This document shows positions 1-16,659 of a stretch of DNA of 64,000 nucleotides, in pieces. Location of the stretch: the NCBI GenBank assembly GCA_964019425.1, contig OZ025792.1:62001-126000 (forward strand). The letters run 5' to 3'. A program made the translations under genes and the position numbers. The stretch comes from Flectonema sp. DT1601. Lineage: Eukaryota. Position 1 is the stretch's first letter. Each line of letters begins with the position of its first letter. The notes under the pieces were generated by a model. The model saw nothing but the letters and a program-made list of their open reading frames with translations. It did no database searches and was not told the DNA's origin.

Positions 1-97
1 GTATGTCGAGACAACGATCAGAGTCAGTAGAAAGAGTATACTAATTTACGGTGTATTTTTGAGTGACGAAGAAAGAAGTTTCCATTTTATCTTCCCG

Positions 98-168
<71 letters not shown>
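98..168 (+). repeat. 71-nt poly(A) tract abutting the TIR element
   Basis: Uninterrupted A run seen directly. Confidence 0.95.
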
Positions 169-171
<3 letters not shown>

Positions 172-411
172 ATCATACTTGTACCCCTTTAAAGGGGAAT
201 TAAAAATTAAAGCGGAAATAAAGGGCTTTTAATATTAAAGGGCTTTTAATTAATTCCCCTTTATTTTCCAATTTAATGAAATAAAGGGGAATTAAAGGGG
301 ATTTAATGAATTAAAGGGCCCTTTATTTTAAAATTAAAGGGGATTTAATTCCCCTTTAATTTGGAAAAATAAAAATAAAGGGCTTTTAATGGTTTTTAAT
401 TAAAAAAAAAA

Positions 412-483
412 TCCTCCACCAGGACTCGAACCTGCAGCCTAGCGAATGCAAATCCACAATCATACCAGTGGACAACCAGTGTC
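412..483 (-). pseudogene. tRNA-derived Pol III-like unit inside the TIR element
   Basis: The minus strand has an A-box-like TGGTTGTCCACTGGTATGA and a B-box GGTTCGAGTCC within a T-arm (CAGG/CCTG) at tRNA spacing. TGC sits at the anticodon position and a T10 run follows (402-411). The acceptor and anticodon stems do not pair properly. Confidence 0.65.
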
Positions 484-2136
484 ACTTAAAAAAGTTTTTT
501 TTTTTTTTTTTTTTTTTTTTTTGGTTACACTCGTCTGTGCTACCAAACTCTTTGTTTTTGTTCTTTTCACTTCTATGTTTTGTCTTTCTTTTATACTTTC
601 TTTTTGACTTAAGTCTGACAGTTTTTTTTTAATTTTCTTTCCTATATTCTTATTGCGGGAATTATCCTTGCAAGGAATTTCTCCTCAAAAATCGTTATTT
701 CACAAGATTCTTCTCCCACAAAAATAATTCCTGATCAAGGAAAATTTTTTACTGGGGGTTTCCTTTGGTTATCTGGTAAGGAATTATTATTGTGAGGAAT
801 TTTTTTTTTGGAAATTTTTTTTTCAGCAAAAATTCTTGAGTTCCTCACAAGAATTTCGGCACGAGGTATTAAGTTGCTCGACCTTCGCTGTTTTTTTCGA
901 TACGTGATTAGTCCGTTAGAGGACTGTCGGTGTGAAAGGAAAGAAAGTCGGAACGGTGGCCAAAGATTAGTGAGTTGACTGAGTTGGTCAGTTACCAGCA
1001 TGGTAGCTAGCGGTTTCCTTATGATGTTAAATATCGTTATGATGATATAGTTGTATTTTACAAATCAAACTCAAACGCCCCCCTTCCTGGTGTTCGTCTT
1101 GGTGATTAATTCACAGTTGAATAACTCGATTCCGTACTGCACTGAATGACAACACGGAAAAAAGAGATGTGTATGCAGCTGAGAGGAATCGTAACTTCAA
1201 GTGCTTTTGCATTCTGAAGATTGCAATGGATGATAATTAAATCTGTCAGTGAGTATCAATTGGTGGGTAGACCACCGAAGTTACTGTGAACAAACCAGCG
1301 TGTCCAAAGCAGGCGTTCGTCTTGTATTTTACGTATAAAATCCAACAGTTAACCCCCTTCAAGTTTTCAAGACAATATAATTATTAATTAAATACTCATG
1401 GGTTTTATAAAAAACTGTTGCGGTTACATAAGCAAGTGGTGCTCAACTATGTTCACGTGGTATTTATTTATCTGCAGTCATTTACTACGCTGCCGCTGAC
1501 AGTCAAGATTGTCAGAGAAATACCTGGTCAATTTGACTTGACATCATTTTTTCTCGCAATTTTAAAATAAAAATTTTCTCCTCTCTTTAGGCTATTACTA
1601 CAAACTTTATTTTCAATCTCTCAAGACAAAAGCTTATGTGGGAACAATTAGACAGGAGCATGATATCCAAAAGTTACATGTCTGAAATCATGGAGAATAC
1701 ATTCTTTCGGAGTTGCTTTAACCAGTAGAATCAGATGCGTGGTCCGTTCCGGTAGGACTCCCTTCTTACGAATGTGTGGTGCCTCGTGTTAGCGCTTTGG
1801 ATAGTAATAACCATTGGCGGCGACTATGCACGGGGTGGCCAGTGGGTTTAATGAGGTCGTTGTGTAATCCCCTTCCATGGCTCTGTTTCGGCATGCTGGA
1901 AAGCGAAGCTCTGAAGTTTACTTCAGGTTAGTCTTGTAAGCCTATCCTTCCGGTTCAGTTCTCGGCTTGGTTGATTCCCTCGATCGTCCCATCCAGGAGT
2001 TTGTGTGCATGGTGAGGCCCTCTGGAAACCCAGCCCAGCACAAGACACCAGGCTCACGGCGAAGATTGGACCCGAAAGTAACCTTGCGTTCTGTTCTGTT
2101 GGCAAGCTCTCTGGCTGAGTGCGTTCGAAGTGAGTG

Positions 2137-3010
2137 GAATTGCTAGTTTGTTGGGTTATGTTCGTAGCAGCTTCACGGTGACGGCGGCCTTATTGAGAAT
2201 TATCCCTGGTTGTTACATGTTACGTAATGATTGGGTTCTCAAGACTGGTTGCTTGCTAATGTGAATGCTGACGTTCGAACTGTTATTCGTAGCAGCTTCA
2301 CGGTGACGGCGGCCTTATTGAGAATTATCCCTGGTTGTTACATGTTACGTAATGATTGGGTTCTCAAGACTGGTTGCTTGCTAATGTGAATGCTGACGTT
2401 CGAACTGTTATTCGTAGCAGCTTCACGGTGACGGCGGCCTTATTGAGAATTATCCCTGGTTGTTACATGTTGAAAGTTGCAGGTTAACTGTGGCTGATGC
2501 ACGTAATGGTTGGGTTCTCAAGACTGGTTGCTTGCTAATGTGAATGCTGACGTTCGAACTGCCCCGACTTTCGAGTAGTTTCCTTTTCCGGCGTGTAACA
2601 ATCCCGACTGACGAAAAAAGTTGGAGGAATTGCTAGTTTGTTGGGTTATATTCGTAGCAGCTTCACGGTGACGGCGGCCTTACTGAGAATTATCCCTGGT
2701 TGTTACGTGTTGAAAGTCACAGGTTATAGCGTCAAAATAACACTCGCGTGGGTGGTTGCTCTCTTCGGAAAGCATAACTTCAGACCCGTCAATTCGCGGC
2801 GCTTATATCTGCACACATTAATTAGTTGAACGAGTTCAAGTCACTTCCCTGCATAGCAGATCCGTGTCCTCTGTACTAACGCTATACTAAGTGTGACTGT
2901 GACTGATACACGTAATGGTTGGGTTCTTTAAGTACTCAGGACTGGTTGCTTGCTGATGTGAATGCTGACGTTCGAACTGCCCCGACTTTCGAGTAATTTT
3001 CCTTTCCGGC
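2137..3010. repeat. 125-bp tandem repeats plus dispersed partial copies inside the TIR element
   Basis: TTCGTAGCAGCTTCACGGTGACGGCGGCC starts at 2161, 2286, 2411 (period 125) and 2651. The ACGTAATG...GACGTTCGAACTG block recurs near 2500 and 2910. Confidence 0.9.
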
Positions 3011-3264
3011 TTAGGATGACGCAGCGTGGTGGGTGCCTTGGGATTTATTAAATAAAGCGGAAATAAAGGGGCTTTCCCACCCCCCTTTATTCCGCTTATT
3101 TCCCCTTTATTTCCCCTTTATTTTGGAAAAAAAGGAAAAAAAGCCCTTTATTTGGATTAAAAGCCCTTTATTTCCCCTTTATTTTGGAATTACGGAAATT
3201 AAAGGGCATTAAAAGCCCTTTAATTTCCCCTTTATTTTGCCCCCTTTAAAGGGGTACAAGTATG

Positions 3265-6200
3265 ATTTATTTATTTATTTATTTATTTAGTCACATCCCC
3301 CCTGTCTTTCTACTTTGTTTTTATTCTTTCTGAGCATACTCGCTCTTCTTATTTTTTAACTAAGTAAATAAGCAACAACGAGTGCAACTGTTGTGAGTCC
3401 GTTGGAGGACTTCCCCGGATAGGAAGCTCACGACACTGTAAGTACAAAGCGAATGATCAATACGGAGACGGTGGCCAAAGACCACTGGGTTACCTGCGAG
3501 CTATGAAGCTCTACGGATGTCCTCAGAGAGTTATTAGGAGATGAATTAGGAGTGATGTATGAGTATGATATACTAAAAAGATAGTAACTTCTGATAACAG
3601 CTTGTTGCCGTCCATTGTTCTAAATGCCATATGAAGCCAGCGAGGGAATGTAAGTTCCTCGTAGCGAACATAAATAGCAGGCTGTGTTCCTTCTTTGAAA
3701 TCTTCGCTTCTTCCATGACAGATCCAATTGTTCCATTTCTGATGCGTACCAGAGCAGAGTTCATGCAGTTAAACATCAAGTGTCTAGGTGATGAGTCCGT
3801 CCGTCTACAAAAAGGGCACTTCAGTTGTACGCCTTTGTCTCTCAGCAAGGGGTGTGAACCCGTTCTGAATTGTGCAATTCTTACTTCCGAAGCCCTCAGC
3901 ATGTCTTTCGGATATCTGGCAGTTCTCAATCCTCCGGTCGCCTCCAGATACTGTCTGAGCATCACCCGTTTCATTGGAGGCTTTGCCTTCTCGGAGGCTT
4001 CCATCATCTTTCCTATCAACTTCCTGTGAGACTCCCTTGCTACCCTTGATTTGTGGGCGAAGAAATCCATGGTCGTTGAGACCGGTTTACTTTCGGCATC
4101 CTTCGAGACTTCTTTGGCCAGCTTATCAGCCTTATCGTGTGGTTCAATCCCCACATGGGCCGGGATAAACTGGAGATGCACCTGTGTCTTCAGATCCCTA
4201 ATGCTTTCCAGTATTAACAGAGAGTTCAACTTCCTCTGGGCAACAATCCCTCCATTGAGTTCCTCCAGGTTGGATTTCGAGTCACTGAAGATTCTGGTAA
4301 TACCTGACCTGGGACCCAAGATCGAGTCAGCTTTGCCAATTTCTCTCATCAGCAGTTTGAGTGTTACTTGTTCAGCCTTGTAGCTGCTTTCAGTAGCTAC
4401 AAGTCTTGACGACATCGTTCTCTCAGTTGGTGAGACCTGTACTGCTGCCGCACCCGCAGTGTAGTTAGCAGGATCATGTGAGCCGTCCACATATATAGCC
4501 GAGTTGCAAGGGACTAGGTCCCTGCAGTATTCCTCAAATTTGTTCCTATCCACATCTGCATCACCGGTCTTGTTATGACCATACCCACAGGATATCTCTA
4601 GATTTGGTACATCCGCCCAGGGTTCGATGCTGTCAGGTTGAACTATTCCTTGGAGGGCGATGTTACAATCTTCCTGCGGCAACTTAGAACTCCAGAATCC
4701 TTTCGCTATTCGGTTCGTCGAACGTACCCACTTCAGCGATCTATATCTAAACAGGGCAGTTCTGGCCTGTTTTTCTATTATCAGTTTCAAAGGGAGCATG
4801 TTCGCCTCCAAGAGCAGTGGGAGAGACCTGGTGTAGATGCTGCAACCCGTTATCCTTCTCGCAATCTTCTTCAGATTCAAGTCCACAAGATCAATCTGAC
4901 CCTCAGATAGGAAAGGACCGAAGCTCTCCAGCCCATATGACAGCCTTGAAAGTATGTACAGGTTCTTGACCATGCACAGCGTCTTAAAATCAAAATCATA
5001 CTGTTCTAGTTTCCCCAGGAGTGCAAGACCCTTCCTGGTCTCATCCAGCATCTTTCCGACCTGTGTTCCATAAGATAAATCACCATCAATGTGCACCCCC
5101 AGGTATTTAACGCTGTCTACCATCGGCATCAGTACTGCGGTTAACAACTTTACTCTCAGCTTACTTGATCCATCAGGAAAAATTGCAAGCAGGTCCTTCG
5201 TATTAGCAACTTCGGTATCATCCACCTTGAGAATGGTTTCTCCACTACCCAGAATTGGCCTTCCAAACTCATTCGGTCTGATCATCTTAGCTAGATCCCC
5301 CCTGCTTACAACGTAATAATTATCCTTTGCAGTCCTGGGGAAGCCCAGTCTCCAGTAGATATCCTTCGGGCAGCGCACAGGCATACCACATGTCTTAGAG
5401 ACGGACAGTGCCATATCATTGGTTTTGCACCAGCTATCCACAAGTCCAAGGATCCATTGCGCCTTCTTATTGGTTAAATTAACGTCCTTATCAGAGACTA
5501 CACAAGCGGTGTCATCTGCATAAAGAGCCGAAACTGAGCCAGTCTTCTCCAACAACTTCGCCAGGTCATCAACATAAATCAGGTATAGCAGCGGACCGAT
5601 AATCGATCCTTGGGGAACCCCCCTCGTTACCGTTCTGTAGGAGCTAAGGTTGCCATTCGCACTCACTCTTGCCTGCCTGCCCTTCAGGAAGTCAACTACC
5701 CATGCAATGAACGGGGAGGGAATACGCATGTTCTTCATCTTCTTGATCAGTTTCTCATGATTAATTCTATCAAATGCTTCCGTGAAGTCGAACGACAGCA
5801 GAACAGAGCTCTTGTTCTTTTCACTGGCCTCATGAAGAGCGTTGACTAACATTGAAATCTGCTCACACGTATTCCTTCCTCTTCTAAAACCCGCCTGGAT
5901 AGACGACAGGGCATTGTTCTGGGTAAGCCAATACATCAACCTATCATAAATCACTCTTTCAAGTACTTTACCCACCACCGAGGTCAACGTGATCGGTCTG
6001 AAACTTGCGATCTTATCTTTTGGCTTTCCTGGTTTGTAAACTGGCTTGATAAGACCCTCCTTCCAGATCCTCGGTACCTTTGACGTTAGCCACGATTCAT
6101 TGAATAACGCCAGGAGGAAATCCATTCCTATCACCGATAAGTTCTTCAACATTATCCCATGGATTCCATCTGGACCTGGTGCTTTCCCGGGCCTTACCTT

Positions 6201-7334
6201 CTTGATGGCTCGCTTCAGTTCAGTCATTGTTAGATTCCCTCCGATTTTGGCGAAGTCGCTGCTCTTCGTATTCGGAGGTCCTAGTTTACGTTTTGTCGGG
6301 GTCTTAACAAATTGTTCCAAGAACTTCGCAGGTAGTTGGTTCTCGTCAAACTCCGGAATGTGAATTTCACGTCCTTCATCCGTCTCAAGGTCCTTTATCT
6401 TTTTGAACGCATATGCAAAGCCTTCACCTTTTGCTAGCCGTTCAGCGATAAATTTTCCCTTCGCACGCTTGGTATCAGGGGTGGAAGCGTTCCACATTCT
6501 TCTTCTCTTCCCTTTGATCCGAAGCCTTCTCCTAACGTACCTCTTCGCTACTCCAAGAACGATTCTGTTGAACGTTACCGCTCTTCTCCCAATGCTCGCA
6601 GAGTTGTTTACCTTTCCAAACCTGTAGTCTAGTTCATGTTCATATGAGTACCAATCAGCTGTATTGAAGTCCCAGACCGATCTCTTCGTCGCGTGGTTGC
6701 CCGAAGGCTCAAGGGGTGAGAGTGTATCGAAGGTAGCAGAGAGTGGTGAATGATCTGAACCGTGCTCAATTCCTTCACCTACCAGCTCAAAGTTAAGCAG
6801 TTGAATCTCCTCGTGGTGCAGGATCAGATCGGGCGAGGTCCCATGTCTCGGCAGTGTCGCTAGACCTGGCGGGTTCGCAATCAGGAGGTCCTCTTGCCCT
6901 GTCCAGTTGAGAAGGTCACATCCTTTTACGTCGGTTTTCTTGGACCAGTACCTATGGTGTGCGTTGAAGTCACCAGCGAGAATGAACTTGCCAACACGTT
7001 TCAGGGAGAATAGTTCAAAATTTATCCTCGAGCTCGGTGGGGAGTAGATGTTGAGAATACTTACGTCTTCGTTAATTCTGACCCCCATCGACTCGACGGT
7101 TCCTCTCATCGACGGTATGGAGATATCAAAGCAATCATGTTGAATTCCTCGTTTTATTAAAGTGATCAGGCCACCTCCCCTTCCTGGCCTATCCCTCCTG
7201 TAGCAAACGTAGTTCCAATGAAACAATGCCATCCTGCAAGAAGTCTCCTGAAGGCAAAGTACGTCGGGGTCAAGCTTACTCAAGATGTGTCCAATGAACT
7301 CCATTTTGTTCGAGATGGTGCGACAATTCCAACT
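3265..7334 (-). mobile_element. Non-LTR retrotransposon (I-group-like: APE-RT-RNase H-CCHC), 5'-truncated at the start of the endonuclease, (TAAA)n tail
   Basis: The ORF is followed by a ~280-nt 3' UTR shared with the second copy and a (TAAA)n tail at 3265-3289. In-frame SWNCR (APE motif 1) lies at 7320-7334, directly after a stop codon and an A-rich junction. Confidence 0.93.
3573..7304 (-). CDS. LINE ORF2-type polyprotein: AP endonuclease, reverse transcriptase, RNase H, C-terminal CCHC finger
   Basis: APE motifs LCLQET, GDFNAH and SDHSP. RT motifs KAPGPDG, FRPITLTS, QAGFR, AFDRI, GVPQGS, YADD and KYLGV. RNase H motifs YVDGS, FSDS and PAHVG...DKADKLAK. C-terminal CPFC-x8-H-x4-C. Confidence 0.96.
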   Translation of the reverse strand: MEFIGHILSKLDPDVLCLQETSCRMALFHWNYVCYRRDRPGRGGGLITLIKRGIQHDCFDISIPSMRGTVESMGVRINEDVSILNIYSPPSSRINFELFSLKRVGKFILAGDFNAHHRYWSKKTDVKGCDLLNWTGQEDLLIANPPGLATLPRHGTSPDLILHHEEIQLLNFELVGEGIEHGSDHSPLSATFDTLSPLEPSGNHATKRSVWDFNTADWYSYEHELDYRFGKVNNSASIGRRAVTFNRIVLGVAKRYVRRRLRIKGKRRRMWNASTPDTKRAKGKFIAERLAKGEGFAYAFKKIKDLETDEGREIHIPEFDENQLPAKFLEQFVKTPTKRKLGPPNTKSSDFAKIGGNLTMTELKRAIKKVRPGKAPGPDGIHGIMLKNLSVIGMDFLLALFNESWLTSKVPRIWKEGLIKPVYKPGKPKDKIASFRPITLTSVVGKVLERVIYDRLMYWLTQNNALSSIQAGFRRGRNTCEQISMLVNALHEASEKNKSSVLLSFDFTEAFDRINHEKLIKKMKNMRIPSPFIAWVVDFLKGRQARVSANGNLSSYRTVTRGVPQGSIIGPLLYLIYVDDLAKLLEKTGSVSALYADDTACVVSDKDVNLTNKKAQWILGLVDSWCKTNDMALSVSKTCGMPVRCPKDIYWRLGFPRTAKDNYYVVSRGDLAKMIRPNEFGRPILGSGETILKVDDTEVANTKDLLAIFPDGSSKLRVKLLTAVLMPMVDSVKYLGVHIDGDLSYGTQVGKMLDETRKGLALLGKLEQYDFDFKTLCMVKNLYILSRLSYGLESFGPFLSEGQIDLVDLNLKKIARRITGCSIYTRSLPLLLEANMLPLKLIIEKQARTALFRYRSLKWVRSTNRIAKGFWSSKLPQEDCNIALQGIVQPDSIEPWADVPNLEISCGYGHNKTGDADVDRNKFEEYCRDLVPCNSAIYVDGSHDPANYTAGAAAVQVSPTERTMSSRLVATESSYKAEQVTLKLLMREIGKADSILGPRSGITRIFSDSKSNLEELNGGIVAQRKLNSLLILESIRDLKTQVHLQFIPAHVGIEPHDKADKLAKEVSKDAESKPVSTTMDFFAHKSRVARESHRKLIGKMMEASEKAKPPMKRVMLRQYLEATGGLRTARYPKDMLRASEVRIAQFRTGSHPLLRDKGVQLKCPFCRRTDSSPRHLMFNCMNSALVRIRNGTIGSVMEEAKISKKEHSLLFMFATRNLHSLAGFIWHLEQWTATSCYQKLLSF

Positions 7335-7351
7335 TCATAAATAAAAAAAAA

Positions 7352-8441
7352 AGTGAATTTGAAAAAGCAACCTCTGTCTTGGGTCCCAGATCTGGAATCA
7401 CGAGAGTCTTCAGTGATTCTAAATCCAATCTGGATGAGCTGCGTGGTGGAATTGCGGCTCAGAGGAAGCTGAACTCTCTCTCGATACTAGAAGGGATAAG
7501 AAAATTAGACTCATTCGTTCACCTTCAATTCATCCCAGCTCATGTGGGAATTGAACCGCATGACAAGGCAGATGAACTGGCGAAAAAGATCTCAAAAGAT
7601 GTTAAGAGCAAGCCGGTGTCAACGACTATGGACTTCTTCGCACATAAGTCAAGGATAGCGAGGGAAGCTAACAGAAAGCTGTTTGGTAAGATTATGGAGG
7701 GTTCAACAAGGGCGAAACCACCGATCAAACGGGTGATGCTTAGGCAATATCTTGATGCTACCGGAGGCCTGAGAGCGGCTCGATACCCCAAGGACATGCT
7801 GAGAGAATCAGAGATAAGGATAGCCAGGTTCAGAACGGGCTCTCACCCCCTGCTCAGGGTAAATGAACTACCGATAAAGTGCCCCTTCTGCAAAAGAACA
7901 GACTCTTCTGCCCGACATCTAATATTTGATTGCGAGGATGGTGACGTGGTCCGCATTAGAGAAGGAACAATTAGATCAAACATTCAGGAAGCGAGAATCT
8001 CCGAGACCAAACTAAATCTTTCAATAATGTTTGCGACGAGAAATCTTCACGCCCTAGCCGGCTACTTATGGCATTTGGAACAACGAACAGGCTTATCAAA
8101 CTGTTAACTGATTGGTAGTTGCTAATTCATTAGTATCATTCTTCCTTATCACACTCCTTAATCAACTCCTAATTTCTCTGAGGACATCCGCAGAGCTTCA
8201 TGGCTCGTAGGTAACCCAGTGGTCTTTGGCCACCGTCCCTGTACTGATCCTTCGCTTTATATTAACTGTGTCTTGAGATTCCTATCCGGGGAAGTCCTCC
8301 AACGGACTCAGGACAGTTGCGCTTGTTTTTACTTGTTTACTTTATCAAAAAATAAGAAGGGCAAGAATGCTCAGAATGAAGAAAAATAAAGTGGAAAGAC
8401 AGGGGGGATGTGACTAAATAAATAAATAAAAAAAAAAAAAA
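7352..8441 (+). mobile_element. Second, divergent, heavily 5'-truncated copy of the same LINE family (RNase H C-half, CCHC, 3' UTR, (TAAA)n/poly(A) tail)
   Basis: ORF 7379-8107 aligns with the C-terminus of 3573-7304 (18 differences over the first ~100 aa, counted by eye). Its 3' UTR matches and ends in GGATGTGAC-(TAAA)n-An. Confidence 0.92.
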
Positions 8442-8450
8442 CAAGGAGGG

Positions 8451-8522
8451 GGTTCAGTGGTCTAGTGGCATGATTCTCGCTTAGGGTGCGAGAGGTCCGG
8501 GGTTCAATTCCCCGCTGAGCCC
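8451..8522 (+). tRNA. tRNA-Pro(AGG)
   Basis: Complete cloverleaf: acceptor GGTTCAG/CTGAGCC, anticodon arm CTCGC-TTAGGGT-GCGAG, T arm CGGGG-TTCAATT-CCCCG. TTTT follows at 8527-8530. Confidence 0.97.
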
Positions 8523-8638
8523 GATATTTTCGAAGTTTCAATGCTAAAAAGGGCAACCGTGAACATTTGGATTCATCTGAAGAATAAAGTAAGAATAATA
8601 GGTTCTGGCAGCGGATACTATAAAATGTGCCACGAAAA

Positions 8639-9277
8639 TTATACATGCCTGGGGACCGCTTCTTTCACAGGCATCAATGACTGAACAAGGAATATCATGA
8701 TAAATACCAAAGCCGAACACACAAAAACAATCTTCCCAATGAACTGTCTGTTAATCAAACCAGACTCGCCTGCTATCCATTCTTGAACACATGAGGGGTT
8801 AGAAGGAACCACAGTGCGTCCCCAATTAGTTATTAGCTGTCCTGTAGAAGCATTGATTACATGCAACGTAGGCATCATGCTCGTACCGAGACTCTTTATC
8901 AATTCTCTTCTTGCTGAAGACGCAAAAGGAACTGCCAAAAACGGGTATTGGGAATGATAGGTTTTGAAGGCACCCTCTTCGCGGTCTCCAGATATTAATA
9001 CTATTCTAATAGAGCTTTCACCGTCGCAAACTCGAGCGAGCTGTGGGGAAAAGGTCCTGTTGTTTGATTATTTTTTCACGTCATCGTACGTTTACAACTG
9101 AAAAATCACATACCTGCAAGGAGGACACCAAGATGCGGAGAGGTACAATCCAATAACTTTTACTCCAGCAAATTCCTCCTCAAAATCTATTGCCTCACCG
9201 TTACTCTGAATCAACCCGCAACTGCGTAGCAACCCTAATTGCGTGCTAGAACGGTCCCTCATCGGGTCGTCCTGCAT
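8639..9277 (-). CDS. Tryparedoxin/nucleoredoxin-like thioredoxin with C-terminal transmembrane anchor (2 exons)
   Basis: Exons 9277-9114 and 9056-8639 with a 57-nt GT-AG intron (9057-9113). The spliced product reads GLYLSASWCPPCRTFSPQL...IVLISGDR...FLAVPF, with a hydrophobic tail IVFVCSALVFIMIFLV. Confidence 0.88.
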
Positions 9278-9588
9278 GCGATTTGTACGAAGAGTTATTT
9301 TGAATTCTGTGTTCGCCCAAATATGTCGGACGTTCTGTTAAGAAATTGAATTAGAGTGCTGAAAAACCGTTGATTATTGCTTTCGTGTCTGTTGTCTAAC
9401 CTGCAGAAAGTGTAGTTAAAGCACATAAAACATCCAGAAGAAGCTAACTCTACAAAATGGGGAAAAAAGAAATCGTCGTAAATACCAACGAATAACAATA
9501 ACAATCGCTCGTGCTAAAATGTAACAGAGTATTTCACGGGTATATTACCCGTGAAAGATGGAGCAAAGGTTGAAGAAGCGGTAGCTTA

Positions 9589-12500
9589 TCAAGCCTTTCT
9601 TCTTTTTACGACTATTTCATCAGACTCGTCTTCTGAATCCGTTTCAAAACGCAGCTTCTCCGCTCGTTTTTGAACTTTCTTTCCAGAAGCTGCTCCACGC
9701 AAGACCTTTTTCTCAACGTGCGAAATCCCAATCTCCCATTCAGACCTGTGCTTCTCAATTAGGGAAGCAGCTTCTTCTTCTGTTGCAAGGGGCCCCTTCA
9801 TGACTTTGAGAGATGATTTAAACTTTTGGAGGTGAGACTTAAATTGTTTGTCTGCTTCAGTCTTGGAGGCAGTGATGAGCATGTCCGTTATGATCGGCAG
9901 ATAGGCAGCTGCAGGAATGGTTGCCTCCTCGTCTTCCAACTCGGGTATCGTTGTGTTGTAAAATCTAAAGCTAGAGAGAAGCTTTATCAATCTCTTTATG
10001 TTGTCGATATCTCCTTCTTTTTCGACCAACTCGCAGTGGAATTCCAACAGACACCACAACGCCAGCTTCTCATGCAACGATTGCGACCGCATTTCGCCAG
10101 TGATGACAGCAGCCTTTTTTTCGTCTTGATCTTCGTCCTTTGCTCTACGAGCGGAACCCAACTCTGCAACATCCGTAATTGCAGCTGCGAAAGCCAGCAA
10201 ACTGCCGAAAGAAGTGTACGGAGAGCTGCTCTTTTTTGTTTCCGTCGGGCTGGTTACCTTCTGAATGTCATAATCTTTTAAAATAATGAAGTCTTCCCTC
10301 GCAACGTGTCGCAGCGCCAGTTGCATTGACTCCAAGCAGAGTGTAAGTCTGCTGTACGAAGAGTATGGGAACACGTCGAAGAAGACAGCCAACACTTGGA
10401 GTGCTTGCTCGCGGTCTTCTGAGTACTCGCCATCCGATTTTTCAAAGAAATAAAGAACTAGTTGAGCCAATGCAATTTTTTCAATACCTCCCGCTGCATT
10501 CGATAATCTGTTGCAAGAGAGCAACTTCGTCAGACATTGCACTGCCGTGGCTCTCAACGAAACACGACGCTCCAACACGTCTGACGGGGTTTCCGCAGCA
10601 ATGTCTTCGTCCTCTCCACCAAACGAATAATCACCAGTACTCGCGAACTGAACAATAATCTTCGTAATAGCGTCTCTTGATGGGATCACACTTCTCGCAC
10701 CGTGTTCAACTACTAAATCTGTTAGCCCTCGCAAGGCTTCCTGCATAGGAGGAGTACAGGAGGTTCCGAGAGCCTTTAGGTTTGGGTACGCTGATTTGCG
10801 TAGAGCGTCTAATAGAATTTTCGAAAATGTTTCCGCAGCCTGCTTTTGTAGGAGGCCGAAGTATGTGAGTGCGTGGATACCCTTTGTGCGAACATAAGTA
10901 TTGCAATGGGTTTGGGAAACCGCGACAGCAATGTCTTGGTGCTGGCTGTTGATTTGAACAGCGTGCGTTGGTCGAGTGTCATGCCTTGCCGTTTCAGTTA
11001 TGATTTCAAGGATGCGAACCCAAAGCCCAACATCATTGCTGGACTCTGTTTGTAGTTTTGTTAACTCACCTTCAGCTTCTTCTAGTTCTTCATCCTGTTC
11101 ATGGACTTCTCTGACAGAAGTCTTTGCCGAATATAAACTTCTCTTCTTGTGCAGTTCAGAAATAGTTCTCTGTAAGCAAATGCATTTTCTATTCAGCTTA
11201 ATTATCTTCTGTTGCTTGGCTAAGTCATCTCTGTTTGTCTGTTCAGCATCAAAGAAGAGTTCTTTGTCAGGGTCTTGATCATCTTCCTCTAACTGTGTGG
11301 ACATCATTTTATTGAGACGAAATATAACAATTGAAATCATGCGGGAAAACTCAGACTCACGATGTCTGTAAAAGTGCCGACACAGTTTGACGGCTTCCGC
11401 TGCCAGCTGTGTCGGAGCAGAGATGTCAACCATTTGAAGAATAATAAAAATGGGATGCATTACTCGTGCTCTTTGGTCTTCAGTGTGCAAGTCGGGTTCA
11501 TAAAACAGTGCTAGTTTCAATAACTGTTTTGCTAAAGAAGTCTTGAGAGTCGGTTCATCCATAGTTAATCCGTCAATGTACCTCTGTAACATTGCAGAAG
11601 TAAAGTCTATATTAGGAAGGTATCTATCACTCCTGTCACTGTCTGGGTCGTATTGTTTTATTTTCTTTATTACAGATCGCAGCAGTAAAAGTGACTCCGC
11701 AGAAAGGTTGTCTTCACACAACTCTTTGCGCTGTTCCAGATCCCAGACGTCTTCAGTTTCAGTTTTCTTGTATTTTACTTCAAAGATGGTTTCAGCAATT
11801 TGCTCACACAACTCTTCATCCTCATCAATCTCAAGTAGTTGAAGCACCTCAACGCTGTTGTGGCGTTGCAGCCAGTTTGCGATTAGTTCCTGTTTTATAA
11901 CATTTATAGCCGTTGTTGAGAATACTTCATATCGATATTCCAATTTCAACAACTACAAAAAAAGAAACACACCTGAGTCGTCTTTCTGATGTCTTCAGAA
12001 CGCTCATTCAGACCTCTCATGAGCAGCGAACGTCGCTGGGAAAGAAGCAGCCAAGTTGGTGGTATTCTAGCCAAGTGGCGATATGCAAGTTTTCTAACCT
12101 GAAGATTAACATCTAAAGTGTGAGTAATAAGTAACTTCAGAATGTTTTGTGACATCGTAAGTCTTGAGAGAACAGCAAGTCGAACTGGGGCAGTGTCACA
12201 AGACATGAGTTGATGATAGTGTTGAGTAACGTCACATTTCTGAGCTGATGAAGGACACTGAAGGAGATAAGAACAATCAACAGCCTTTACTCGAACAGTT
12301 GCTACTTTATCGTCTTGTCTATCGTGAGCAAAGGCGGCTATTTTATCGAAAAGTTCATACTCATCGAACTGGTCTTCTTCTTCCACATCTTCCTTGCTTT
12401 CAGCAGCTGCCTTCTCTTTTGCAGTCCTCAACTTACTCAACGACATCATACAGCATGTTACTAACTCGCAGGCATTTCGTCGGATGTCTTTGTCTTCACA

Positions 12501-12833
12501 GTTCTCAGCAGACATTGCTTTCTCCAATAGCCACGCTGCTTGATATGAACTTTCTCTTTTCAGAAGATATGCTCCCGTCATCTTCATCACTCTGTCAGCA
12601 GCTGCGTACTCTTTCGATGCCAAAGCCCACTGCAATGCATACCAGATCTCACTTAAGAAATCATCCGTTCCTTTCTGTTCTAAAGTTATCAGAAGGGACA
12701 CCATCCGACTGTGACTCGCATTACTCTTCTGTGCCGTGTGAAAGGCTGAACAGACGGACTTGCGCAGCTTGTTGGATTCTTTTTTGTTCTTCTTTTCCGA
12801 AGAGGACTTTGAAGCCTTGCGCTTTCCAGGCAT
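9589..12833 (-). CDS. NCAPG: Condensin I HEAT subunit CAP-G (Ycg1/Cnd3) (2 exons)
   Basis: Exons 12833-11973 and 11889-9589 with an 83-nt GT-AG intron. Motifs include AFHTAQKSNASH, DKVATVRVKAV, TLDVNLQVRKLAY, LMRGLNERSEDIRKTTQ|ELIANWL, AVQCLTKLL and QALQVLAVFFDVF. Confidence 0.82.
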
Positions 12834-13376
12834 CGAATTGGTGCCACCTGTTAGAAAAGTAATCAGAAGTTAAATGATGTTCACAGCAAGCCAAAAAAAA
12901 GGTAAACTACTACTTAATTCACATGTTGTTTATATCCCTGTTGGTACTTACTTAATATATTGACTGGGGATACATGCTACGGGCTATCGTGTCGTAATTG
13001 ACGCTTGTTAACGAAATAAAATACTTCTAAGCAGCGCTAAAGTCAGCAGGAAAGCAACCAGGTGTTGGCAACATGAAATCTTTCGTGTTGCCTTTGACTT
13101 ATTTTCTTCTTCGATGTTTTCTGCGAAATGGTTAAAATCAAACGACTGCTAAGAAGACCCTGTCTTGAAGAGTCAGGTGCAACTCAGCTGCGTGTAAAGC
13201 TTTTAGTGCTTTTAAGAAGCGAGAAGTACAAACAAAATACTTCTCCGTTCTTCTTTCATAAAATGAAAAAAAAATACTGGGAAAGGAACTAAACAAAACA
13301 ATCTAAAAGTACACGTAGCAGGATCCACTCACTTGTGGTGACTAACTTCTAATTCGTAATCACAACTGTACATGTT

Positions 13377-15278
13377 TTATCCGCAGCAACCGCCACCCTT
13401 CTTTTCCGCGACCTGCTTGGGTCTCGGTGAAGGCCTGGACCTCGCGGTAGTCTTCTGTTCTGCCGAAGTGGGCGGCTTACTACTACTACTGCTGCTGCTG
13501 GTGGTTGAAGAGACGTTTGGATCCTCTGTGGAGTCCTTTGGAGCTGAGTTTTTAATTTGCTCCATTTCACTAGTGTAGTCCTCTTCGTGGTAATCCATTT
13601 CAGTCTTCCAATTCTTTTTGCATATTTCGATCGCACTGTTAGCATCGTGGTCAATTAACTCGAGAGCGGCCTCCTCAACTTTGACAGCGTCGACAAGAGT
13701 TCGATACCCGCTCGCCGTTGAATCCATTGATGAAATGTAGCGTTCACAACGCCAGTTGGTTTCTAACAATGAATATGAACATGTGTAAGAGTCATCACTG
13801 TCGTTGTTAGGTTTGGCGTTGTTACGAACCCACAGGCCGTAATTGTAAAGACCTAACTCTTCGACGTTGCAGTCTTTTCCATTTACTCCATCAAAGAATG
13901 CTGCTCGTTTTTGTTGAGCCTCTTCTCCAACATCATCGATGCCGCAGTTGCATAAGTCAAGTAAACAAGGCAGTCGTAGCAGTCTGATTGCTGTAGCATT
14001 GCTGCAATGTTTTGAGCAAAGCTCTTGAAGTTCTTCTGACATGAGATTGCCGTGTTGGCTTCCAGAGTCCCAGAGACTTGACGTTCCGTGATGGAGGTAC
14101 GCACCTTTTGAAAAAGAATTGATCTCAATGGCTGACTCTCCAATCGGTTCCGAAGGATTAGAACCTCTGTCTATCCCTTCTGAATGAGATCCAGCACATG
14201 CAGAAAGGAATTGAGAAACTCCCTCAGTACTATCAGCTGAGACGCTAATTGGAGTCCAAATGTTTGATATTATCCTATGCTTACAGATAAGTATTTCCTC
14301 AACCGTTCTCATAATTGTCTCGTAGTCAGGATCTGATTTATATCTTTGAATATTTACTTTTAGGTCGCTGTCTGCTCTATTCCTTTTATGAACCAACAAA
14401 CCCATTTGAGCTTCTAATGTTGTTTTAAGCTCATCTTTGCATCTATCGAATGTTCGAAGTGTATCTTTTAGTTTTTCAAAGTCGCTGTTGGAACTTCGAA
14501 ATGCGGGTCGGATCTGCTCAGGTGTGAAGGTTTCCCTGTCCAGAGCTAAGGCTTTCATCTCGTCTTCGCATCTGCGAAGTTTGCGTTTTTGATCATTTCT
14601 GACCTGCTCTTCCTGTTCAGCTGTAATATTTAGTTCCCTTATCAATGATTCGATTAGTCTATTTTGCTTCTCTTCTATGAAGGGATCGATTTGGACTGGA
14701 GATGCTGATTGGACTGGAGATGATGATTGATCTGTCTCTGTTGGGACCTCTTCGATTGGAGATGGTGTTTCTTGTTGTTCGTGTTTTGGTTCTTCAATGC
14801 TCTTCTTCCTTTTCTTTGCCTTGCTGCTCTTGCGTGTTGGACATAGCAGGTTAGAGAATGCAACGTAGTCAACCCAACCAGTCTGGTTGGGATCAGCTTG
14901 AGTAAGCAACTCTTGTTGTTCATATCCTTGAAGTTCGTCTTCAGTACTGCTTCCCATTGCACGTAAGAACTCAGCTGTTGTCAGCTTACCGGTTCTTCGT
15001 TCGTCGAATACCTGAAATGCTGCGATTAGTTCTTCTCTATTGTATCCCCTCGTGTGTTTTACTGCTTCATAACAAATTCTAAACTCTTCGTACCTCACTC
15101 GAGTGTCTTCGTCTCCCTCGGGTACGATGTCTTCGAGGCTTTGAGAAGTCGGATTCAATCCCAACATGTGCATCGCGTTCATTAACTGATTTCGTGGTAT
15201 GTATCGAAGGTGACCATCGTCTATACAATAATCCTCAAATACTTCATCCATGTCAGCTTTTACTTGCATTCGCATCAT
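13377..15278 (-). CDS. Calmodulin-like EF-hand protein with coiled coil and C-terminal GGGCCG lipidation-like motif
   Basis: LGLNPT, ELIAAFQVFDERRTGKLTTAEF and ADPNQTGWVDYVAF are EF-hand-like. The likely start is the ATG at 15278, after a CAG acceptor. Confidence 0.75.
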   Translation of the reverse strand: MMRMQVKADMDEVFEDYCIDDGHLRYIPRNQLMNAMHMLGLNPTSQSLEDIVPEGDEDTRVRYEEFRICYEAVKHTRGYNREELIAAFQVFDERRTGKLTTAEFLRAMGSSTEDELQGYEQQELLTQADPNQTGWVDYVAFSNLLCPTRKSSKAKKRKKSIEEPKHEQQETPSPIEEVPTETDQSSSPVQSASPVQIDPFIEEKQNRLIESLIRELNITAEQEEQVRNDQKRKLRRCEDEMKALALDRETFTPEQIRPAFRSSNSDFEKLKDTLRTFDRCKDELKTTLEAQMGLLVHKRNRADSDLKVNIQRYKSDPDYETIMRTVEEILICKHRIISNIWTPISVSADSTEGVSQFLSACAGSHSEGIDRGSNPSEPIGESAIEINSFSKGAYLHHGTSSLWDSGSQHGNLMSEELQELCSKHCSNATAIRLLRLPCLLDLCNCGIDDVGEEAQQKRAAFFDGVNGKDCNVEELGLYNYGLWVRNNAKPNNDSDDSYTCSYSLLETNWRCERYISSMDSTASGYRTLVDAVKVEEAALELIDHDANSAIEICKKNWKTEMDYHEEDYTSEMEQIKNSAPKDSTEDPNVSSTTSSSSSSSKPPTSAEQKTTARSRPSPRPKQVAEKKGGGCCG

Positions 15279-15918
15279 GTTTAAGACAGCTGTGAAAGTG
15301 AATAATAACAAAAACACTAAAAAATACTAGTTTCTCTTCTCCTAATCGATGTTGTTGTCTGTAGTTTGAGATTGACGATTAGCTTACTAACCAACAACTC
15401 ACACTAACCGTACACAACGAGTGGGAATGCAAATTAGAAGATAAAAAACAGGCATGAGTTACAAAAGACGAATGGAATACAACGTACAGCAGCACACTTT
15501 TTTTATGTTCGAAGACCACACGTTGATGTTATTTTATGCTAACAGACAAATTCTTTGAGATCAGAAATACAAATAATTACTTAGGAGTTCAATGTGTTGG
15601 ACGGAAAAACCTTTACGGCGTTGTCGGTGTAGTGAGCGAAAAGAATAAATAATATCCACACCCTCGATAGCAATATTCTACTGCCGCTCAATTATTGTCG
15701 AAATAGAAAGTAACTTTCTAATTTTTGGGGAATGGGGGAAGCTTTTTTTTTTTTTTTTTTTTTTTTTCCTTCTTCTTTCTTCTTCTTCTTTCAGTTCAGT
15801 TCGTATACGCATAATTTTGTAGTTTTCAAGTTGCAACGCCAACGCAGGCAATGAGAAGAAAACATACAAAAAAAAAAAAAAAAAAAAAAAAAGGTCCGCA
15901 AGACGGACTCATAATTAA

Positions 15919-16659
15919 CTATTCCTCTTCACCATTAATAGCATCGAGAAATTGTTTTCTGGATTCGGAACTCCAGGCGGAACAGCTTTCAAGGAATCTG
16001 GAACTATCAACACGCTTTAGTCTAATTAAAGGATTCATATCGAGTTCTTCTAGTAAAGTACACTTCGCAAAGAATCCAGCTCCAATTGCAATCACATTAC
16101 ACAACGGGGACAGGTCTACTGATCTGAGCTGGGCACAGTCGCTAAGGAAGTAGCCACCAATGGATGTAACGGCGCTAAGCGCTGATAAATCAAGGAATGT
16201 TAACCCTACACTACCACATAAGAAAAACCCTCCAATCTCTCTCACGAATTCACAGTTTGTAAATGCAACGGTTTTGACTGATGGAGGCAACATGTTAAAG
16301 CTTGTTTCGAGTCTTCCGTAGTTGTTCATTGTTGAGGCATCGAGAATACAGACCTTGTCGGGATTGGCTTCAAACAAGGCGGAGGTTCTCGCAATTCTCC
16401 CCTTGGAAAAATCTTCCTTCGTGAATACTACTTTCTCACTTACTACAGCAATAATTCCAGCATTCCTTGGTAATCCGTGTGATGCAAGGAGACTACCTGT
16501 AGGAAGTAAGTCTGACAAGTAAGTCAAATTGACAGTTGTAATATCACAGTCCCACTCTTCTGCTACTGCCTTCATAGCATCCTCTACAAGAGTACGCGGT
16601 CCAACATTGAACTGTACCTCTGCGTATCTCGTACCAGGACAACTGATGTGAACGATCAT
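15919..16659 (-). CDS. Ubiquitin-like N-terminus plus BspA-type leucine-rich repeats
   Basis: Repeats of the form LxxLDLSxLxxVxxIGxxFL (VREIGGFFL, VTSIGGYFL, VIAIGAGFF). The N-terminal ~75 aa has a beta-grasp-like pattern. Confidence 0.7.
   Translation of the reverse strand: MIVHISCPGTRYAEVQFNVGPRTLVEDAMKAVAEEWDCDITTVNLTYLSDLLPTGSLLASHGLPRNAGIIAVVSEKVVFTKEDFSKGRIARTSALFEANPDKVCILDASTMNNYGRLETSFNMLPPSVKTVAFTNCEFVREIGGFFLCGSVGLTFLDLSALSAVTSIGGYFLSDCAQLRSVDLSPLCNVIAIGAGFFAKCTLLEELDMNPLIRLKRVDSSRFLESCSAWSSESRKQFLDAINGEEE

What the first reader, a model, noticed from the sequence alone, without database searches (positions are those of the whole stretch)
5140..5355. PDZ-like domain inserted inside the LINE reverse transcriptase
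Seen in sequence: about 90 aa lie between LSVSKT and VKYLGV, where non-LTR RTs usually have roughly 20-30 aa. The extra segment is WRLGFPRTAKDNYYVVSRGDLAKMIRPNEFGRPILGSGETILKVDDTEVANTKDLLAIFPDGSSKLRVKLL. It follows the PDZ pattern in order: GLGF-like loop (RLGF), beta strand (YYVVS), GxxA, L..GD.IL.V(N/D)G..V (LGSGETILKVDDTEV), helix (TKDLLAIF) and a final strand (LRVKL). The ORF stays intact for 1243 codons, so the insertion appears tolerated. I know of no non-LTR element with a PDZ inside the RT. Inference: it could be a captured host domain used for tethering or target selection.
Basis: partly seen in the sequence, partly recalled or inferred. Interest (0 to 1): 0.8.

Follow-up and report, generated by a model that had tools for sequence, protein, structure and literature searches.

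The report
PDZ-fold module inside a retrotransposon RT
A family of jumping genes (non-LTR retrotransposons), whose named relatives are from diplonemid protists, carries a conserved extra segment in the middle of its reverse transcriptase; the segment is predicted to fold like a PDZ protein-docking domain and likely helps the enzyme engage its insertion site.

Summary
The minus-strand ORF 3573..7304 (1243 aa: APE, RT, weak RNase H, Cys/His motif) has 93 aa between LSVSKT and VKYLGV. The motif-6 K to motif-7 G spacing is 98-110 aa in 14 of 14 family rows, against 30-56 (median 35.5) in 62 other non-LTR RTs.

The insert is not private to this copy. All seven related clusters carry it: five subfamilies with 26-101 members each, plus two transcript clusters named Flectonema neradi. 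No sequence that spans the site lacks it. All 7 nucleotide differences seen in a public run are synonymous, 5 of them inside the insert.

Three lines point to a PDZ fold:
- A profile of the insert hits PDZ-bearing chains in 30 of 33 PDB matches (best E 2.5e-6).
- 4 of 7 members hit Pfam PDZ_6 below threshold.
- AlphaFold models are confident (pLDDT 86-94 in RT context), and all 50 listed rows of an unbiased structure search are PDZ domains (best Z 7.0).

No donor protein was found, and no Pfam curated threshold is met, so I call it PDZ-like. The site matches my reading of R2 "motif 6a", which touches target DNA. A docking or targeting role is inferred, not shown. I found no published precedent. 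Verdict: a new variant of a known kind.

The parts
3266..7337 (-). Retrotransposon copy 1: a non-LTR, APE-type, L1Tc/ingi-like element. Its 5' end is approximate and abuts an inverted partial copy.
   Evidence: Pfam domains. The 3' (TAAA)n run is at 3266-3289. Upstream in-frame homology ends at SWNCRTISNK after a stop.
3573..7304 (-). Open reading frame of 1243 codons (P0001), stop codon included.
6741..7295 (-). AP-endonuclease domain (aa 4-188).
   Evidence: Pfam Exo_endo_phos_2 6.5e-13 and Exo_endo_phos 1.5e-9.
5091..6023 (-). Reverse transcriptase (Pfam RVT_1 envelope, aa 428-738). It contains YADD at aa 595-598.
   Evidence: RVT_1 1.8e-37. AF2 model mean pLDDT 92.4. Foldseek to human LINE-1 ORF2p 9hdo, E 1.3e-20, TMq 0.67.
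5112..5390 (-). The 93-aa insert between RT motif 6 (LSVSKT) and motif 7 (VKYLGV), aa 639-731.
   Evidence: The phmmer alignment to LINE-1 ORF2p stops at query residue 269 = aa 638.
5121..5339 (-). Predicted PDZ-fold core (aa 656-728). Predicted elements: strand 660-666, helix 668-674, strands 675-677, 683-685 and 690-694, helix 702-708, strand 716-723.
   Evidence: AF2. VIA-align model range 32..104, Z 7.0, rmsd 3.0 over 72 residues to the MAGI PDZ3 structure 3bpu. Foldseek.
4107..4499 (-). RNase H-like region (aa 936-1066), below Pfam threshold in this copy.
   Evidence: RNase_H E 0.0008, 20 bits against a cut-off of 25.8. Relatives P0005 and P0008 carry PF00075 in the precomputed list.
3765..3818 (-). 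C-terminal Cys/His motif CPFC...H...C (aa 1163-1180), read by eye as a zinc-knuckle-like motif.
   Evidence: Sequence. Conserved in family rows of A1. No family model tested.
3266..3572 (-). 3' UTR ending in a (TAAA)n tail. It is 87% identical over 289 nt to the 3' UTR of copy 2.
7355..8441 (+). Second, 5'-truncated copy of a sister subfamily (P0004-like). It covers only aa 988-1235 plus the 3' UTR and tail, and does not reach the insert.
   Evidence: tblastn 73% identity. Sequence and tail 8416-8441.

Best explanation
The 93 extra residues between RT motifs 6 and 7 of this 1243-codon non-LTR retrotransposon ORF are a conserved insert that is predicted to fold as a PDZ domain and would likely act as a docking module on the target-facing side of the reverse transcriptase.

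Shown:
- The insert is present in every related element found: five subfamilies that appear to share one assembly, plus two expressed transcript clusters of the diplonemid Flectonema neradi.
- It stays in frame with nearly constant length across elements that have diverged to about 44% identity.
- It differs from a near-identical copy or strain only by synonymous changes.

Predicted: a compact PDZ-like fold with the canonical order of elements, packed confidently onto the RT palm.

Inferred:
- The insertion point corresponds to what R2 papers call RT 'motif 6a', a loop that wedges into upstream target-site DNA during target-primed reverse transcription. The module should therefore sit beside the target DNA.
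- The insert is net acidic in 4 of 7 subfamilies. I therefore favour binding to a peptide or C-terminal tail of a target-associated or element-encoded protein over direct DNA binding.
- The partner is unknown.
For: Insertion and family-wide presence:
- Spacing is 98-110 aa in 14 of 14 family rows, against 30-56 aa in 62 other RTs.
- 7 of 7 family clusters carry the insert and 9 of 9 other RTs aligned lack it.
- 48 of 63 BLASTP rows span the whole 120-aa probe with the insert. The other 15 are fragments, and none shows a deletion.
- Cluster sizes are 42, 26, 74, 4, 101, 37 and 1. Two clusters are named Flectonema neradi transcripts.

Selection:
- 7 of 7 differences in public-run contigs are synonymous third-position changes, 5 of them in the insert.
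- Insert length is conserved, with 0 gaps in 3 comparisons and 4-8 in 4.

PDZ assignment:
- The profile of the insert against PDB gives 33 matches at E<=10, of which 30 are PDZ-bearing chains. The best is 2.5e-6 (S2P PDZ tandem). LIMK2 PDZ scores 0.0041 over profile positions 13-78.
- Pfam PDZ_6 hits 4 of 7 members (best 0.0013) and PDZ_2 hits 2 of 7.
- The stand-alone AF2 model has pLDDT 80-86 over model residues 41-100, which lie in the core 33-101. In RT context the insert blocks score 86-94 and the model mean is 92.4.
- All listed Foldseek rows are PDZ domains or PDZ-proteases, with prob up to 0.99 and TMt up to 0.57.
- VIA-align against 48,161 chains: 50 of 50 listed rows are PDZ, best Z 7.0, rmsd 3.0, 72 of 86 residues aligned, and 77 chains at Z>=5.

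Position:
- R2 motif 6a contacts target DNA (passages read in PMC12180492, PMC11204384 and PMC12247875).

Charge:
- K+R against D+E for the 7 members is 14/11, 15/11, 10/12, 10/10, 13/16, 11/19 and 10/14.
Against: - The window copy's own insert has no Pfam hit at E<=10, and no member reaches a Pfam curated cut-off (for example 15.5 bits against 27).
- Foldseek E-values are only 0.04 and up, with none at or below 0.001.
- VIA Z stays under 8, a range the tool says can reflect a common arrangement.
- The profile hits rest largely on one motif, (S/T/N)GE(T/M)(I/V)L(E/K)V.
- The insert is the least conserved part of the ORF: 23-59% identity, against 59-78% for the RT core.
- The G of the GLGF-like loop is present in only 3 of 7 subfamilies.
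- hhalign to the one canonical host PDZ in the window is not significant (prob 4.65%).
- No donor was found.
- No binding partner, no structure with nucleic acid and no coordinates were available, so the module's position relative to the target DNA is inferred from the name and description of motif 6a, not measured.
- The synonymous-only signal rests on 7 sites in contigs of depth 2.2-2.3.
Confidence: 0.55

Rival explanations
1. The insert has a PDZ-like fold but is not a peptide-docking domain. It would be an enlarged 'motif 6a' that works structurally, either contacting target DNA, primer or template RNA directly, or bracing the RT against the thumb or RNase H. The classical peptide groove would be degenerate.
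For: - R2 motif 6a itself contacts DNA.
- The GLGF-like G is not conserved (3 of 7).
- The loop has low confidence in the stand-alone model, while the domain gains confidence only in RT context, which suggests tight packing on the RT.
- No conserved C-terminal tail exists in the family that could serve as a cis ligand.
Against: - Net charge of the insert ranges from +4 to -8 and is acidic in 4 of 7 subfamilies, which fits poorly with a conserved nucleic-acid-binding surface.
- L and F of the loop and the G and L of the GE(T)IL motif are invariant, as expected if the PDZ core and groove scaffold are kept.
Confidence: 0.3
2. The PDZ resemblance is chance or convergence. The segment would be a lineage-specific beta-rich elaboration of the native hairpin that precedes the primer grip, with no evolutionary relation to PDZ domains.
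For: - No Pfam threshold is met.
- Foldseek E is at least 0.04 and VIA Z is under 8.
- Other RTs align their native 'l.lng..i' hairpin to the ILKVDDTEV stretch, so part of the 'PDZ motif' could be ancestral RT sequence.
- No donor was found.
- The ESM Atlas feature search gave nothing at 0.9 or above.
Against: Three partly independent methods converge on PDZ and almost nothing else: 30 of 33 PDB profile matches, all listed Foldseek rows, and 50 of 50 listed VIA rows from an all-against-all search that does not use Foldseek. The match covers 72 of 86 residues of a PDZ with the same order of elements.
Confidence: 0.12
3. The segment is an unspliced intron, an assembly artefact, or neutral junk tolerated in a dead copy.
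For: The window copy looks 5'-truncated. The insert is the fastest-evolving part of the ORF.
Against: - It is in frame and homologous in Trinity-assembled transcripts of Flectonema neradi.
- It is present in all 48 full-span sequences from many contigs.
- 5 of 5 differences within it are synonymous.
- It is confidently folded in the AF2 model.
Confidence: 0.02

Closest known systems
L1Tc / ingi non-LTR retrotransposons of trypanosomatids
   Same: Single ORF with AP endonuclease, RT, RNase H and a C-terminal Cys/His nucleic-acid-binding region, with an N-terminal 2A-like leader. L1Tc architecture comes from passages and figure legends of PMC5814959. 2A in Ingi and L1Tc comes from the abstract of PMC3708506. 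In this family, 2A-like G(D/N)VE(R/V)NPGP leaders are seen in 10 of the 22 N-termini I listed. The host is also a euglenozoan, judging by the named relatives.
   Different: No PDZ is mentioned for L1Tc ('pdz' occurs 0 times in PMC5814959). I could not fetch L1Tc or ingi sequences, so whether they have any insert at this site, and whether this family belongs phylogenetically to the ingi clade, is untested. The tail here is (TAAA)n, not plain poly-A.
Canonical PDZ domains (Pfam PF00595, PF17820, PF13180; e.g. MAGI PDZ3 3bpu, ZO-1 PDZ3, S2P/DegP PDZs)
   Same: Predicted fold and order of secondary-structure elements. Shared motif around 'L..G(D/E).IL.V(N/D)G..v' followed by a helix and a final strand (alignments). 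Hydrophobic L.F at the place of GLGF.
   Different: - It is embedded inside another enzyme's catalytic domain rather than forming a separate module.
- It is below every Pfam curated threshold.
- The G of GLGF is not conserved.
- Ligand binding is untested.
- It is shorter at the N-terminal side, where the first strand may be shared with the RT strand after motif 6 (my reading).
R2 retrotransposon RT 'motif 6a'
   Same: An RT-internal elaboration that contacts upstream target-site DNA during TPRT (passages in PMC12180492, PMC11204384 and PMC12247875). The insert here lies between motifs 6 and 7, which is where I expect motif 6a from its name and from recall.
   Different: In R2 it is a loop, not a folded domain of about 70 aa. 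R2 uses a restriction-like endonuclease and N-terminal ZnF/Myb domains. That the two positions are equivalent was not verified by a residue-level structural alignment here.
Human LINE-1 ORF2p RT (8sxt, 9hdo)
   Same: Best structural match of the RT model (E 1.3e-20, TMq 0.67). Sequence alignment runs through motif 6.
   Different: The ORF2p sequence alignment ends exactly where the insert starts (query 269 = aa 638, ORF2p 738). ORF2p has no RNase H and no such module.
Other accessory-domain gains in non-LTR elements (e.g. N-terminal PHD finger in P0012)
   Same: Non-LTR ORFs pick up extra domains. P0012 carries PF00628 (PHD) in the precomputed list.
   Different: Those are terminal additions. 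Here the extra domain interrupts the RT palm between two catalytic-core motifs.

Membership tests
APE-type non-LTR retrotransposon | AP-endonuclease domain N-terminal to the RT | tested here: met
   Exo_endo_phos_2 6.5e-13 and Exo_endo_phos 1.5e-9, both above cut-off. The first APE motif (SWNCR) lies upstream of the Met, behind a stop, in this copy.
APE-type non-LTR retrotransposon | RT domain with YADD catalytic motif and a non-LTR-type fold | tested here: met
   RVT_1 1.8e-37. YADD at aa 595. Foldseek best hits are LINE-1 ORF2p and R2.
APE-type non-LTR retrotransposon | 3' tail of A-rich or simple repeat, multiple dispersed copies, 5' truncation | tested here: met
   (TAAA)n tails at 3266-3289 and 8416-8441. 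A second 5'-truncated copy is present. Clusters of 26-101 members sit on many contigs. Target-site duplications were not examined.
ingi / L1Tc clade | RNase H domain after the RT | tested here: inconclusive
   RNase_H E 0.0008, 20 bits, below the cut-off of 25.8 in the window copy. PF00075 is listed for relatives P0005 and P0008.
ingi / L1Tc clade | N-terminal 2A-like sequence | tested here: inconclusive
   Present in relatives (P0005, P0118, P0120, P0129, P0007, P0134, P0146, P0143) but absent from the window copy's ORF, which starts later. 2A activity is untested.
ingi / L1Tc clade | Phylogenetic placement of the RT within the clade | not tested
PDZ domain (Pfam PF00595 / PF17820 / PF13180) | Score above the Pfam curated threshold | tested here: not met
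   The window insert gives 0 families at E<=10. Relatives match PDZ_6 in 4 of 7 (best E 0.0013) and PDZ_2 in 2 of 7. P0148 scores 15.5 bits for PDZ_6 against a cut-off of 27.
PDZ domain (Pfam PF00595 / PF17820 / PF13180) | PDZ fold: partly open beta-barrel with two helices in the canonical order | tested here: met
   Predicted structure only. VIA-align: 50 of 50 listed rows are PDZ, best Z 7.0, rmsd 3.0, 72 residues. All listed Foldseek rows are PDZ or PDZ-proteases. Z stays under 8, so the match is moderate in strength.
PDZ domain (Pfam PF00595 / PF17820 / PF13180) | Carboxylate-binding loop (GLGF-type, X-Phi-G-Phi) | tested here: inconclusive
   The seven rows read RLGF, RLGF, RLGF, RLTF, ELLF, ELLF and GLKF. 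L and F are invariant and G is present in 3 of 7. The loop has pLDDT under 50 in the stand-alone model.
PDZ domain (Pfam PF00595 / PF17820 / PF13180) | Binds C-terminal or internal peptide ligands in the beta-B/alpha-B groove | not testable with these tools
   No candidate partner is known. Family C-termini are not conserved.
R2-type RT motif 6a (target-DNA-contacting insertion) | Located between RT motifs 6 and 7 and contacting target DNA | tested here: inconclusive
   The location between motif 6 (LSVSKT) and motif 7 (YLG) is met. DNA contact is known only for R2 and is not testable here. Residue-level equivalence to R2 motif 6a was not verified.

The most novel reading that the evidence does not exclude
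This would be the first retrotransposon whose reverse transcriptase has a functional PDZ domain grafted onto its target-facing surface. The domain would grip the C-terminal tail of a host chromatin or RNA polymerase III transcription factor and so steer insertion to safe sites such as the upstream flank of tRNA genes. The one tRNA gene in this window sits 8 bp from the tail of the neighbouring copy.
Probability: 0.1. Interest if true: 0.85.

Novelty: new variant of a known kind. Interest (0 to 1): 0.62.

Why it matters
Non-LTR retrotransposons usually gain new functions by adding domains at their ends. The RT catalytic core is considered rigid, with small clade-specific loops such as motifs 2a, 3a and 6a.

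Here a whole protein-interaction fold interrupts the palm between motifs 6 and 7. It has been kept through the diversification of at least seven element lineages in at least two diplonemid-type sources.

If it docks to a host or element protein, it would be a new way for a LINE-type element to choose or hold its target. It would also be a natural example that this RT surface tolerates a folded domain, which matters for engineering R2/LINE-type enzymes for gene insertion. Finally, it adds a defined, apparently active transposon family to diplonemids, whose repeat-rich genomes have had no rigorous transposon analysis (PMC10161547, passages read).

Tried and rejected
- Whole-genome search of the window's own assembly: no genome is held. 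Copy counts, flanks and target sites could not be studied directly.
- Donor search for the insert, three ways:
  - Word-indexed search of longer proteins with the single sequence found 4 hits, all family.
  - The same search with the profile found 10 hits at E<=10 among 7997 candidates, all family members or fragments.
  - Exhaustive phmmer against 1.84 billion representatives found 5 hits at E<=0.001. Three are family. The other two (P0149, P0151) are long repetitive proteins, read as bacterial from their sequences; they have no PDZ Pfam match, and I treat them as repeat-driven false positives.
- hhalign of the insert profile against the canonical PDZ of a host gene in this window (34389..36419): probability 4.65%, not significant.
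- ESM Atlas feature search of aa 645-728: best score 0.86, no Pfam-bearing cluster, uninformative.
- Sequencing runs: one low-coverage holder and no RNA holder listed, so there is no expression evidence for the window's own copy. Parts of 4800-5800 had no contig cover.
- Earlier scan notes: nothing for this place or sequence.
- Literature: 'PDZ domain' + 'non-LTR retrotransposon' + 'reverse transcriptase' found 1 paper, unrelated by title and abstract. 'PDZ' + 'retrotransposon' + 'ORF2' found 10 papers, none about a PDZ in a retroelement by title or abstract. Listings only. Subscription journals and Repbase are not covered.
- Intron reading: rejected (see rival 4).
- Complex prediction was not used because I had no candidate partner worth a job.
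Full report
**1. What is at the coordinates**

The finding lies on the minus strand, inside an ORF at 3573..7304 that is open for 1243 codons. Pfam finds four domains:
- AP endonuclease at aa 4-188 (Exo_endo_phos_2, 6.5e-13).
- RVT_1 at aa 428-738 (1.8e-37).
- A sub-threshold RNase H at aa 936-1066 (E 0.0008, 20 bits against a cut-off of 25.8).
- By eye, a CPFC...H...C motif at aa 1163-1180.

LSVSKT is aa 633-638 and VKYLGV is aa 732-737. The RVT_1 match needs 311 residues for a 205-position profile. A phmmer alignment to human LINE-1 ORF2p stops exactly at aa 638.

**2. Is it more than usual?**

In an alignment of 76 sequences (A4), I measured the number of residues from the motif-6 Lys to the Gly of YLG:
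- 98-110 in all 14 family rows.
- 30-56 (median 35.5) in the 62 other non-LTR RTs.

The net insertion is therefore about 60-75 aa.

**3. The element and its host**

Every one of the 20 ORFs of at least 250 aa in the 64-kb window is on the minus strand. The neighbours are ordinary eukaryotic genes: condensin Cnd3, a DEAH helicase, tubulin cofactor D, a ubiquitin-repeat protein and a PDZ protein.

The only named relatives of the ORF are transcriptome proteins of the diplonemid Flectonema neradi. The window therefore probably comes from a diplonemid or a related euglenozoan. I did not try to identify the record.

Full-length relatives begin with a short leader carrying a 2A-like G(D/N)VE(R/V)NPGP motif ahead of the endonuclease. 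That matches the architecture described for L1Tc and ingi of trypanosomatids: 2A, AP, RT, RNase H and a C-terminal nucleic-acid chaperone. My sources are passages and figure legends of PMC5814959 and the abstract of PMC3708506.

The window copy starts at an internal Met. The in-frame codons just upstream read SWNCRTISNK behind a stop, so this copy looks 5'-truncated or 5'-damaged. It ends in a (TAAA)n run at 3266-3289.

Head-to-head with it lies a 5'-truncated copy of a sister subfamily at 7355..8441 on the plus strand. That copy is 73% identical over aa 988-1235.

**4. Is the insert private, neutral or an intron?**

No to all three.

*Distribution.* A search with aa 540-800 gave 72 proteins at E<=0.001 among 2985 candidates. 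Seven clusters (P0002-P0008) cover 98-100% of the query at 45-100% identity. All seven carry the insert, while the 9 other RTs aligned with them do not.

The clusters have 42, 26, 74, 4, 101, 37 and 1 members. The five unnamed clusters share contig lengths with each other, so they appear to be subfamilies in one assembly.

Among all proteins fetched, 63 BLASTP rows match a 120-aa probe across the site. Of these, 48 span it completely with the insert, including the window's own protein under two ids. The other 15 are fragments, and none shows a deletion.

*Intron.* The two Flectonema clusters are assembled transcripts that keep the homologous segment in frame. This argues against an intron.

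*Selection.* Contigs of one public run laid on 4800-5800 differ from the window at 7 places. All 7 are synonymous third-position changes, and 5 of them lie in the insert (aa 646, 669, 671, 678, 686). The contigs are shallow (depth 2.2-2.3), so this is a small sample, but sequencing error would not be all-synonymous.

*Against strong constraint.* The insert is the least conserved region of the ORF:

| Region | Identity to the window copy |
|---|---|
| PDZ-like core | 23-59% |
| RT core | 59-78% |
| Linkers and endonuclease | 37-74% |
| C-terminus | 31-68% |

Its length is nearly fixed, with 0 gaps in three comparisons and 4-8 in four.

**5. Is it PDZ-like?**

*Sequence.*
- The window's own insert gives no Pfam hit even at E<=10.
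- A profile of the seven family inserts (A2) searched against all PDB sequences returns 33 matches at E<=10. By my reading of the names, 30 are PDZ-bearing chains: S2P/RseP PDZ tandems, DegP/DegQ/HtrA, LIMK2, InaD-like, Par6, p55, SNX27. The other 3 are two FlgD chains and one convicilin.
- The best E-value is 2.5e-6. LIMK2 PDZ scores 0.0041 and covers profile positions 13-78, nearly the whole insert.
- Scanned singly, 4 of 7 members hit PDZ_6 (best 0.0013), 2 of 7 hit PDZ_2 and 1 of 7 hits PDZ_Tricorn. None is above a curated cut-off.

*Structure.*
- AlphaFold2 on aa 625-745 with 15 rows gives pLDDT 80-86 over model residues 41-100, which lie within the folded core (model residues 33-101), and under 50 on the flanks.
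- In RT context (aa 370-900, 76 rows) the model mean is 92.4 and the ten-residue blocks across the insert score 86-94.
- The predicted order of elements is strand 660-666, helix 668-674, strands 675-677, 683-685 and 690-694, helix 702-708, strand 716-723.
- Every listed Foldseek row against PDB is a PDZ domain or a PDZ-protease. E-values are weak (0.044 and up, none at or below 0.001), with prob up to 0.99 and TMt up to 0.57.
- VIA-align 2, which aligns the model to all 48,161 representative chains without Foldseek, lists 50 rows and all 50 are PDZ domains. The best is MAGI PDZ3 (3bpu): Z 7.0, rmsd 3.0 Å, 72 of 86 residues, model range 32..104. Seventy-seven chains reach Z>=5 and none reaches Z>=8.
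- The tool warns that Z under 8 can reflect a common arrangement. Here the exclusivity of the list carries the weight, not the score.

*Conserved positions.* The invariant columns of the insert include L and F at the place of G-L-G-F, the G and L of (S/T/N)GE(T/M)(I/V)L(E/K)V, and an LxP just before motif 7. The G of GLGF is present in only 3 of 7 subfamilies.

I conclude that the segment is PDZ-like in fold and probably in origin. It is too diverged to file as a member of a Pfam PDZ family.

**6. Origin**

No donor was found.
- The single sequence and the profile find only family members among longer proteins.
- An exhaustive phmmer of 1.84 billion representatives adds only two repetitive proteins, read as bacterial from their sequences, without any PDZ signal.
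- The canonical PDZ of a host gene in this same window is not significantly similar (hhalign probability 4.65%).

'Captured host domain' therefore remains plausible but unshown.

**7. How it most likely works**

*Shown.* The module sits between RT motifs 6 and 7 and is retained in all lineages found.

*From the literature.* In R2 elements an RT elaboration called motif 6a wedges into upstream target-site DNA during target-primed reverse transcription. It differs between R2 lineages (passages in PMC12180492, PMC11204384 and PMC12247875).

*Inferred.* From its name and my recall, motif 6a lies between motifs 6 and 7. The diplonemid module would then occupy the same target-facing surface, next to the primer grip. 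I did not verify residue-level equivalence and had no model coordinates.

The insert's K+R against D+E counts are 14/11, 15/11, 10/12, 10/10, 13/16, 11/19 and 10/14. It is net acidic in four subfamilies, which fits poorly with a conserved DNA-binding face.

I therefore commit to this reading: a PDZ-type docking module that binds a peptide or tail of a protein at the target, or of the element's own RNP, and so holds the RT at the nick. I give about 0.55 to the whole reading, about 0.85 to the PDZ-like fold alone, and about 0.35-0.4 to peptide docking specifically.

The main rival is a purely structural or nucleic-acid-contacting enlarged motif 6a (0.3). Chance resemblance gets about 0.12, and intron or junk about 0.02.

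**8. A lead noticed on the way**

The only tRNA gene in the window, tRNA-Pro(AGG) at 8450..8523 on the plus strand, begins 8 bp after the tail of the second copy (tail 8416-8441). This is one case only, and copy 1 has no tRNA at its 3' end. It is nevertheless the kind of pattern a tethering module would produce, and it can be tested on the full assembly.

**9. Novelty**

Two full-text searches found no paper describing a PDZ in a retrotransposon RT (titles and abstracts of listings only). The L1Tc review does not contain the word. The diplonemid genome paper reports about 2500 retroelement-like gene models but no rigorous transposon analysis (passages read). Its supplementary files were not read and might bear on this.

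Precomputed Pfam labels for the family list only RT, endonuclease and RNase H.

I rate it a new variant of a known kind: an L1Tc/ingi-like non-LTR retrotransposon with an unprecedented folded domain inside the RT palm.

Noticed in passing
window 8450..8523 (+), with copy-2 tail at 8416..8441: The only tRNA gene in the 64 kb, tRNA-Pro(AGG), starts 8 bp after the (TAAA)n/A-rich tail of the 5'-truncated second element copy. This may hint at insertion next to Pol III genes, but it is a single case.
   Followed up: partly
relatives P0005, P0118, P0120, P0129, P0007, P0134, P0146, P0143 (N-termini): Full-length family members begin with a short leader ending in a 2A-like G(D/N)VE(R/V)NPGP motif just before the endonuclease, as described for L1Tc and ingi. 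The window copy lacks it.
   Followed up: partly
window 7305..7354: The two element copies meet head to head. Copy 1's in-frame upstream codons read SWNCRTISNK behind a stop. Between the copies lies an A-rich stretch (ataaataaaaaaaaaaa) that resembles the elements' own tails, possibly a remnant of a third insertion.
   Followed up: no
window 3266..3572 (-) and 8105..8441 (+): The 3' UTRs of the two copies are 87% identical over 289 nt, although their proteins are only 73% identical. This suggests a constrained 3' UTR, perhaps the RT recognition element.
   Followed up: partly
window 1..64000: All 20 ORFs of at least 250 aa are on the minus strand, long and apparently intron-poor. This is a unidirectional gene cluster of the kind described for diplonemids and kinetoplastids. 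The elements sit at its downstream end, next to a low-GC stretch (0.356 in 1..2000).
   Followed up: partly
window 34389..36419 (-): A host gene encodes a protein with a canonical N-terminal PDZ domain (PF00595, 9.5e-8). It is not detectably related to the RT insert (hhalign probability 4.65%).
   Followed up: yes
window 2700..3260 (-): Downstream of copy 1's tail lies a run of short 'aaataaagggg(c/a)' type repeats of unknown nature.
   Followed up: no
window 9589..12833 (-): Two adjacent ORFs (787 aa with a Cnd3 condensin domain, and 295 aa) overlap by a few bases in different frames. They may be one gene split by a short intron or a frameshift.
   Followed up: no
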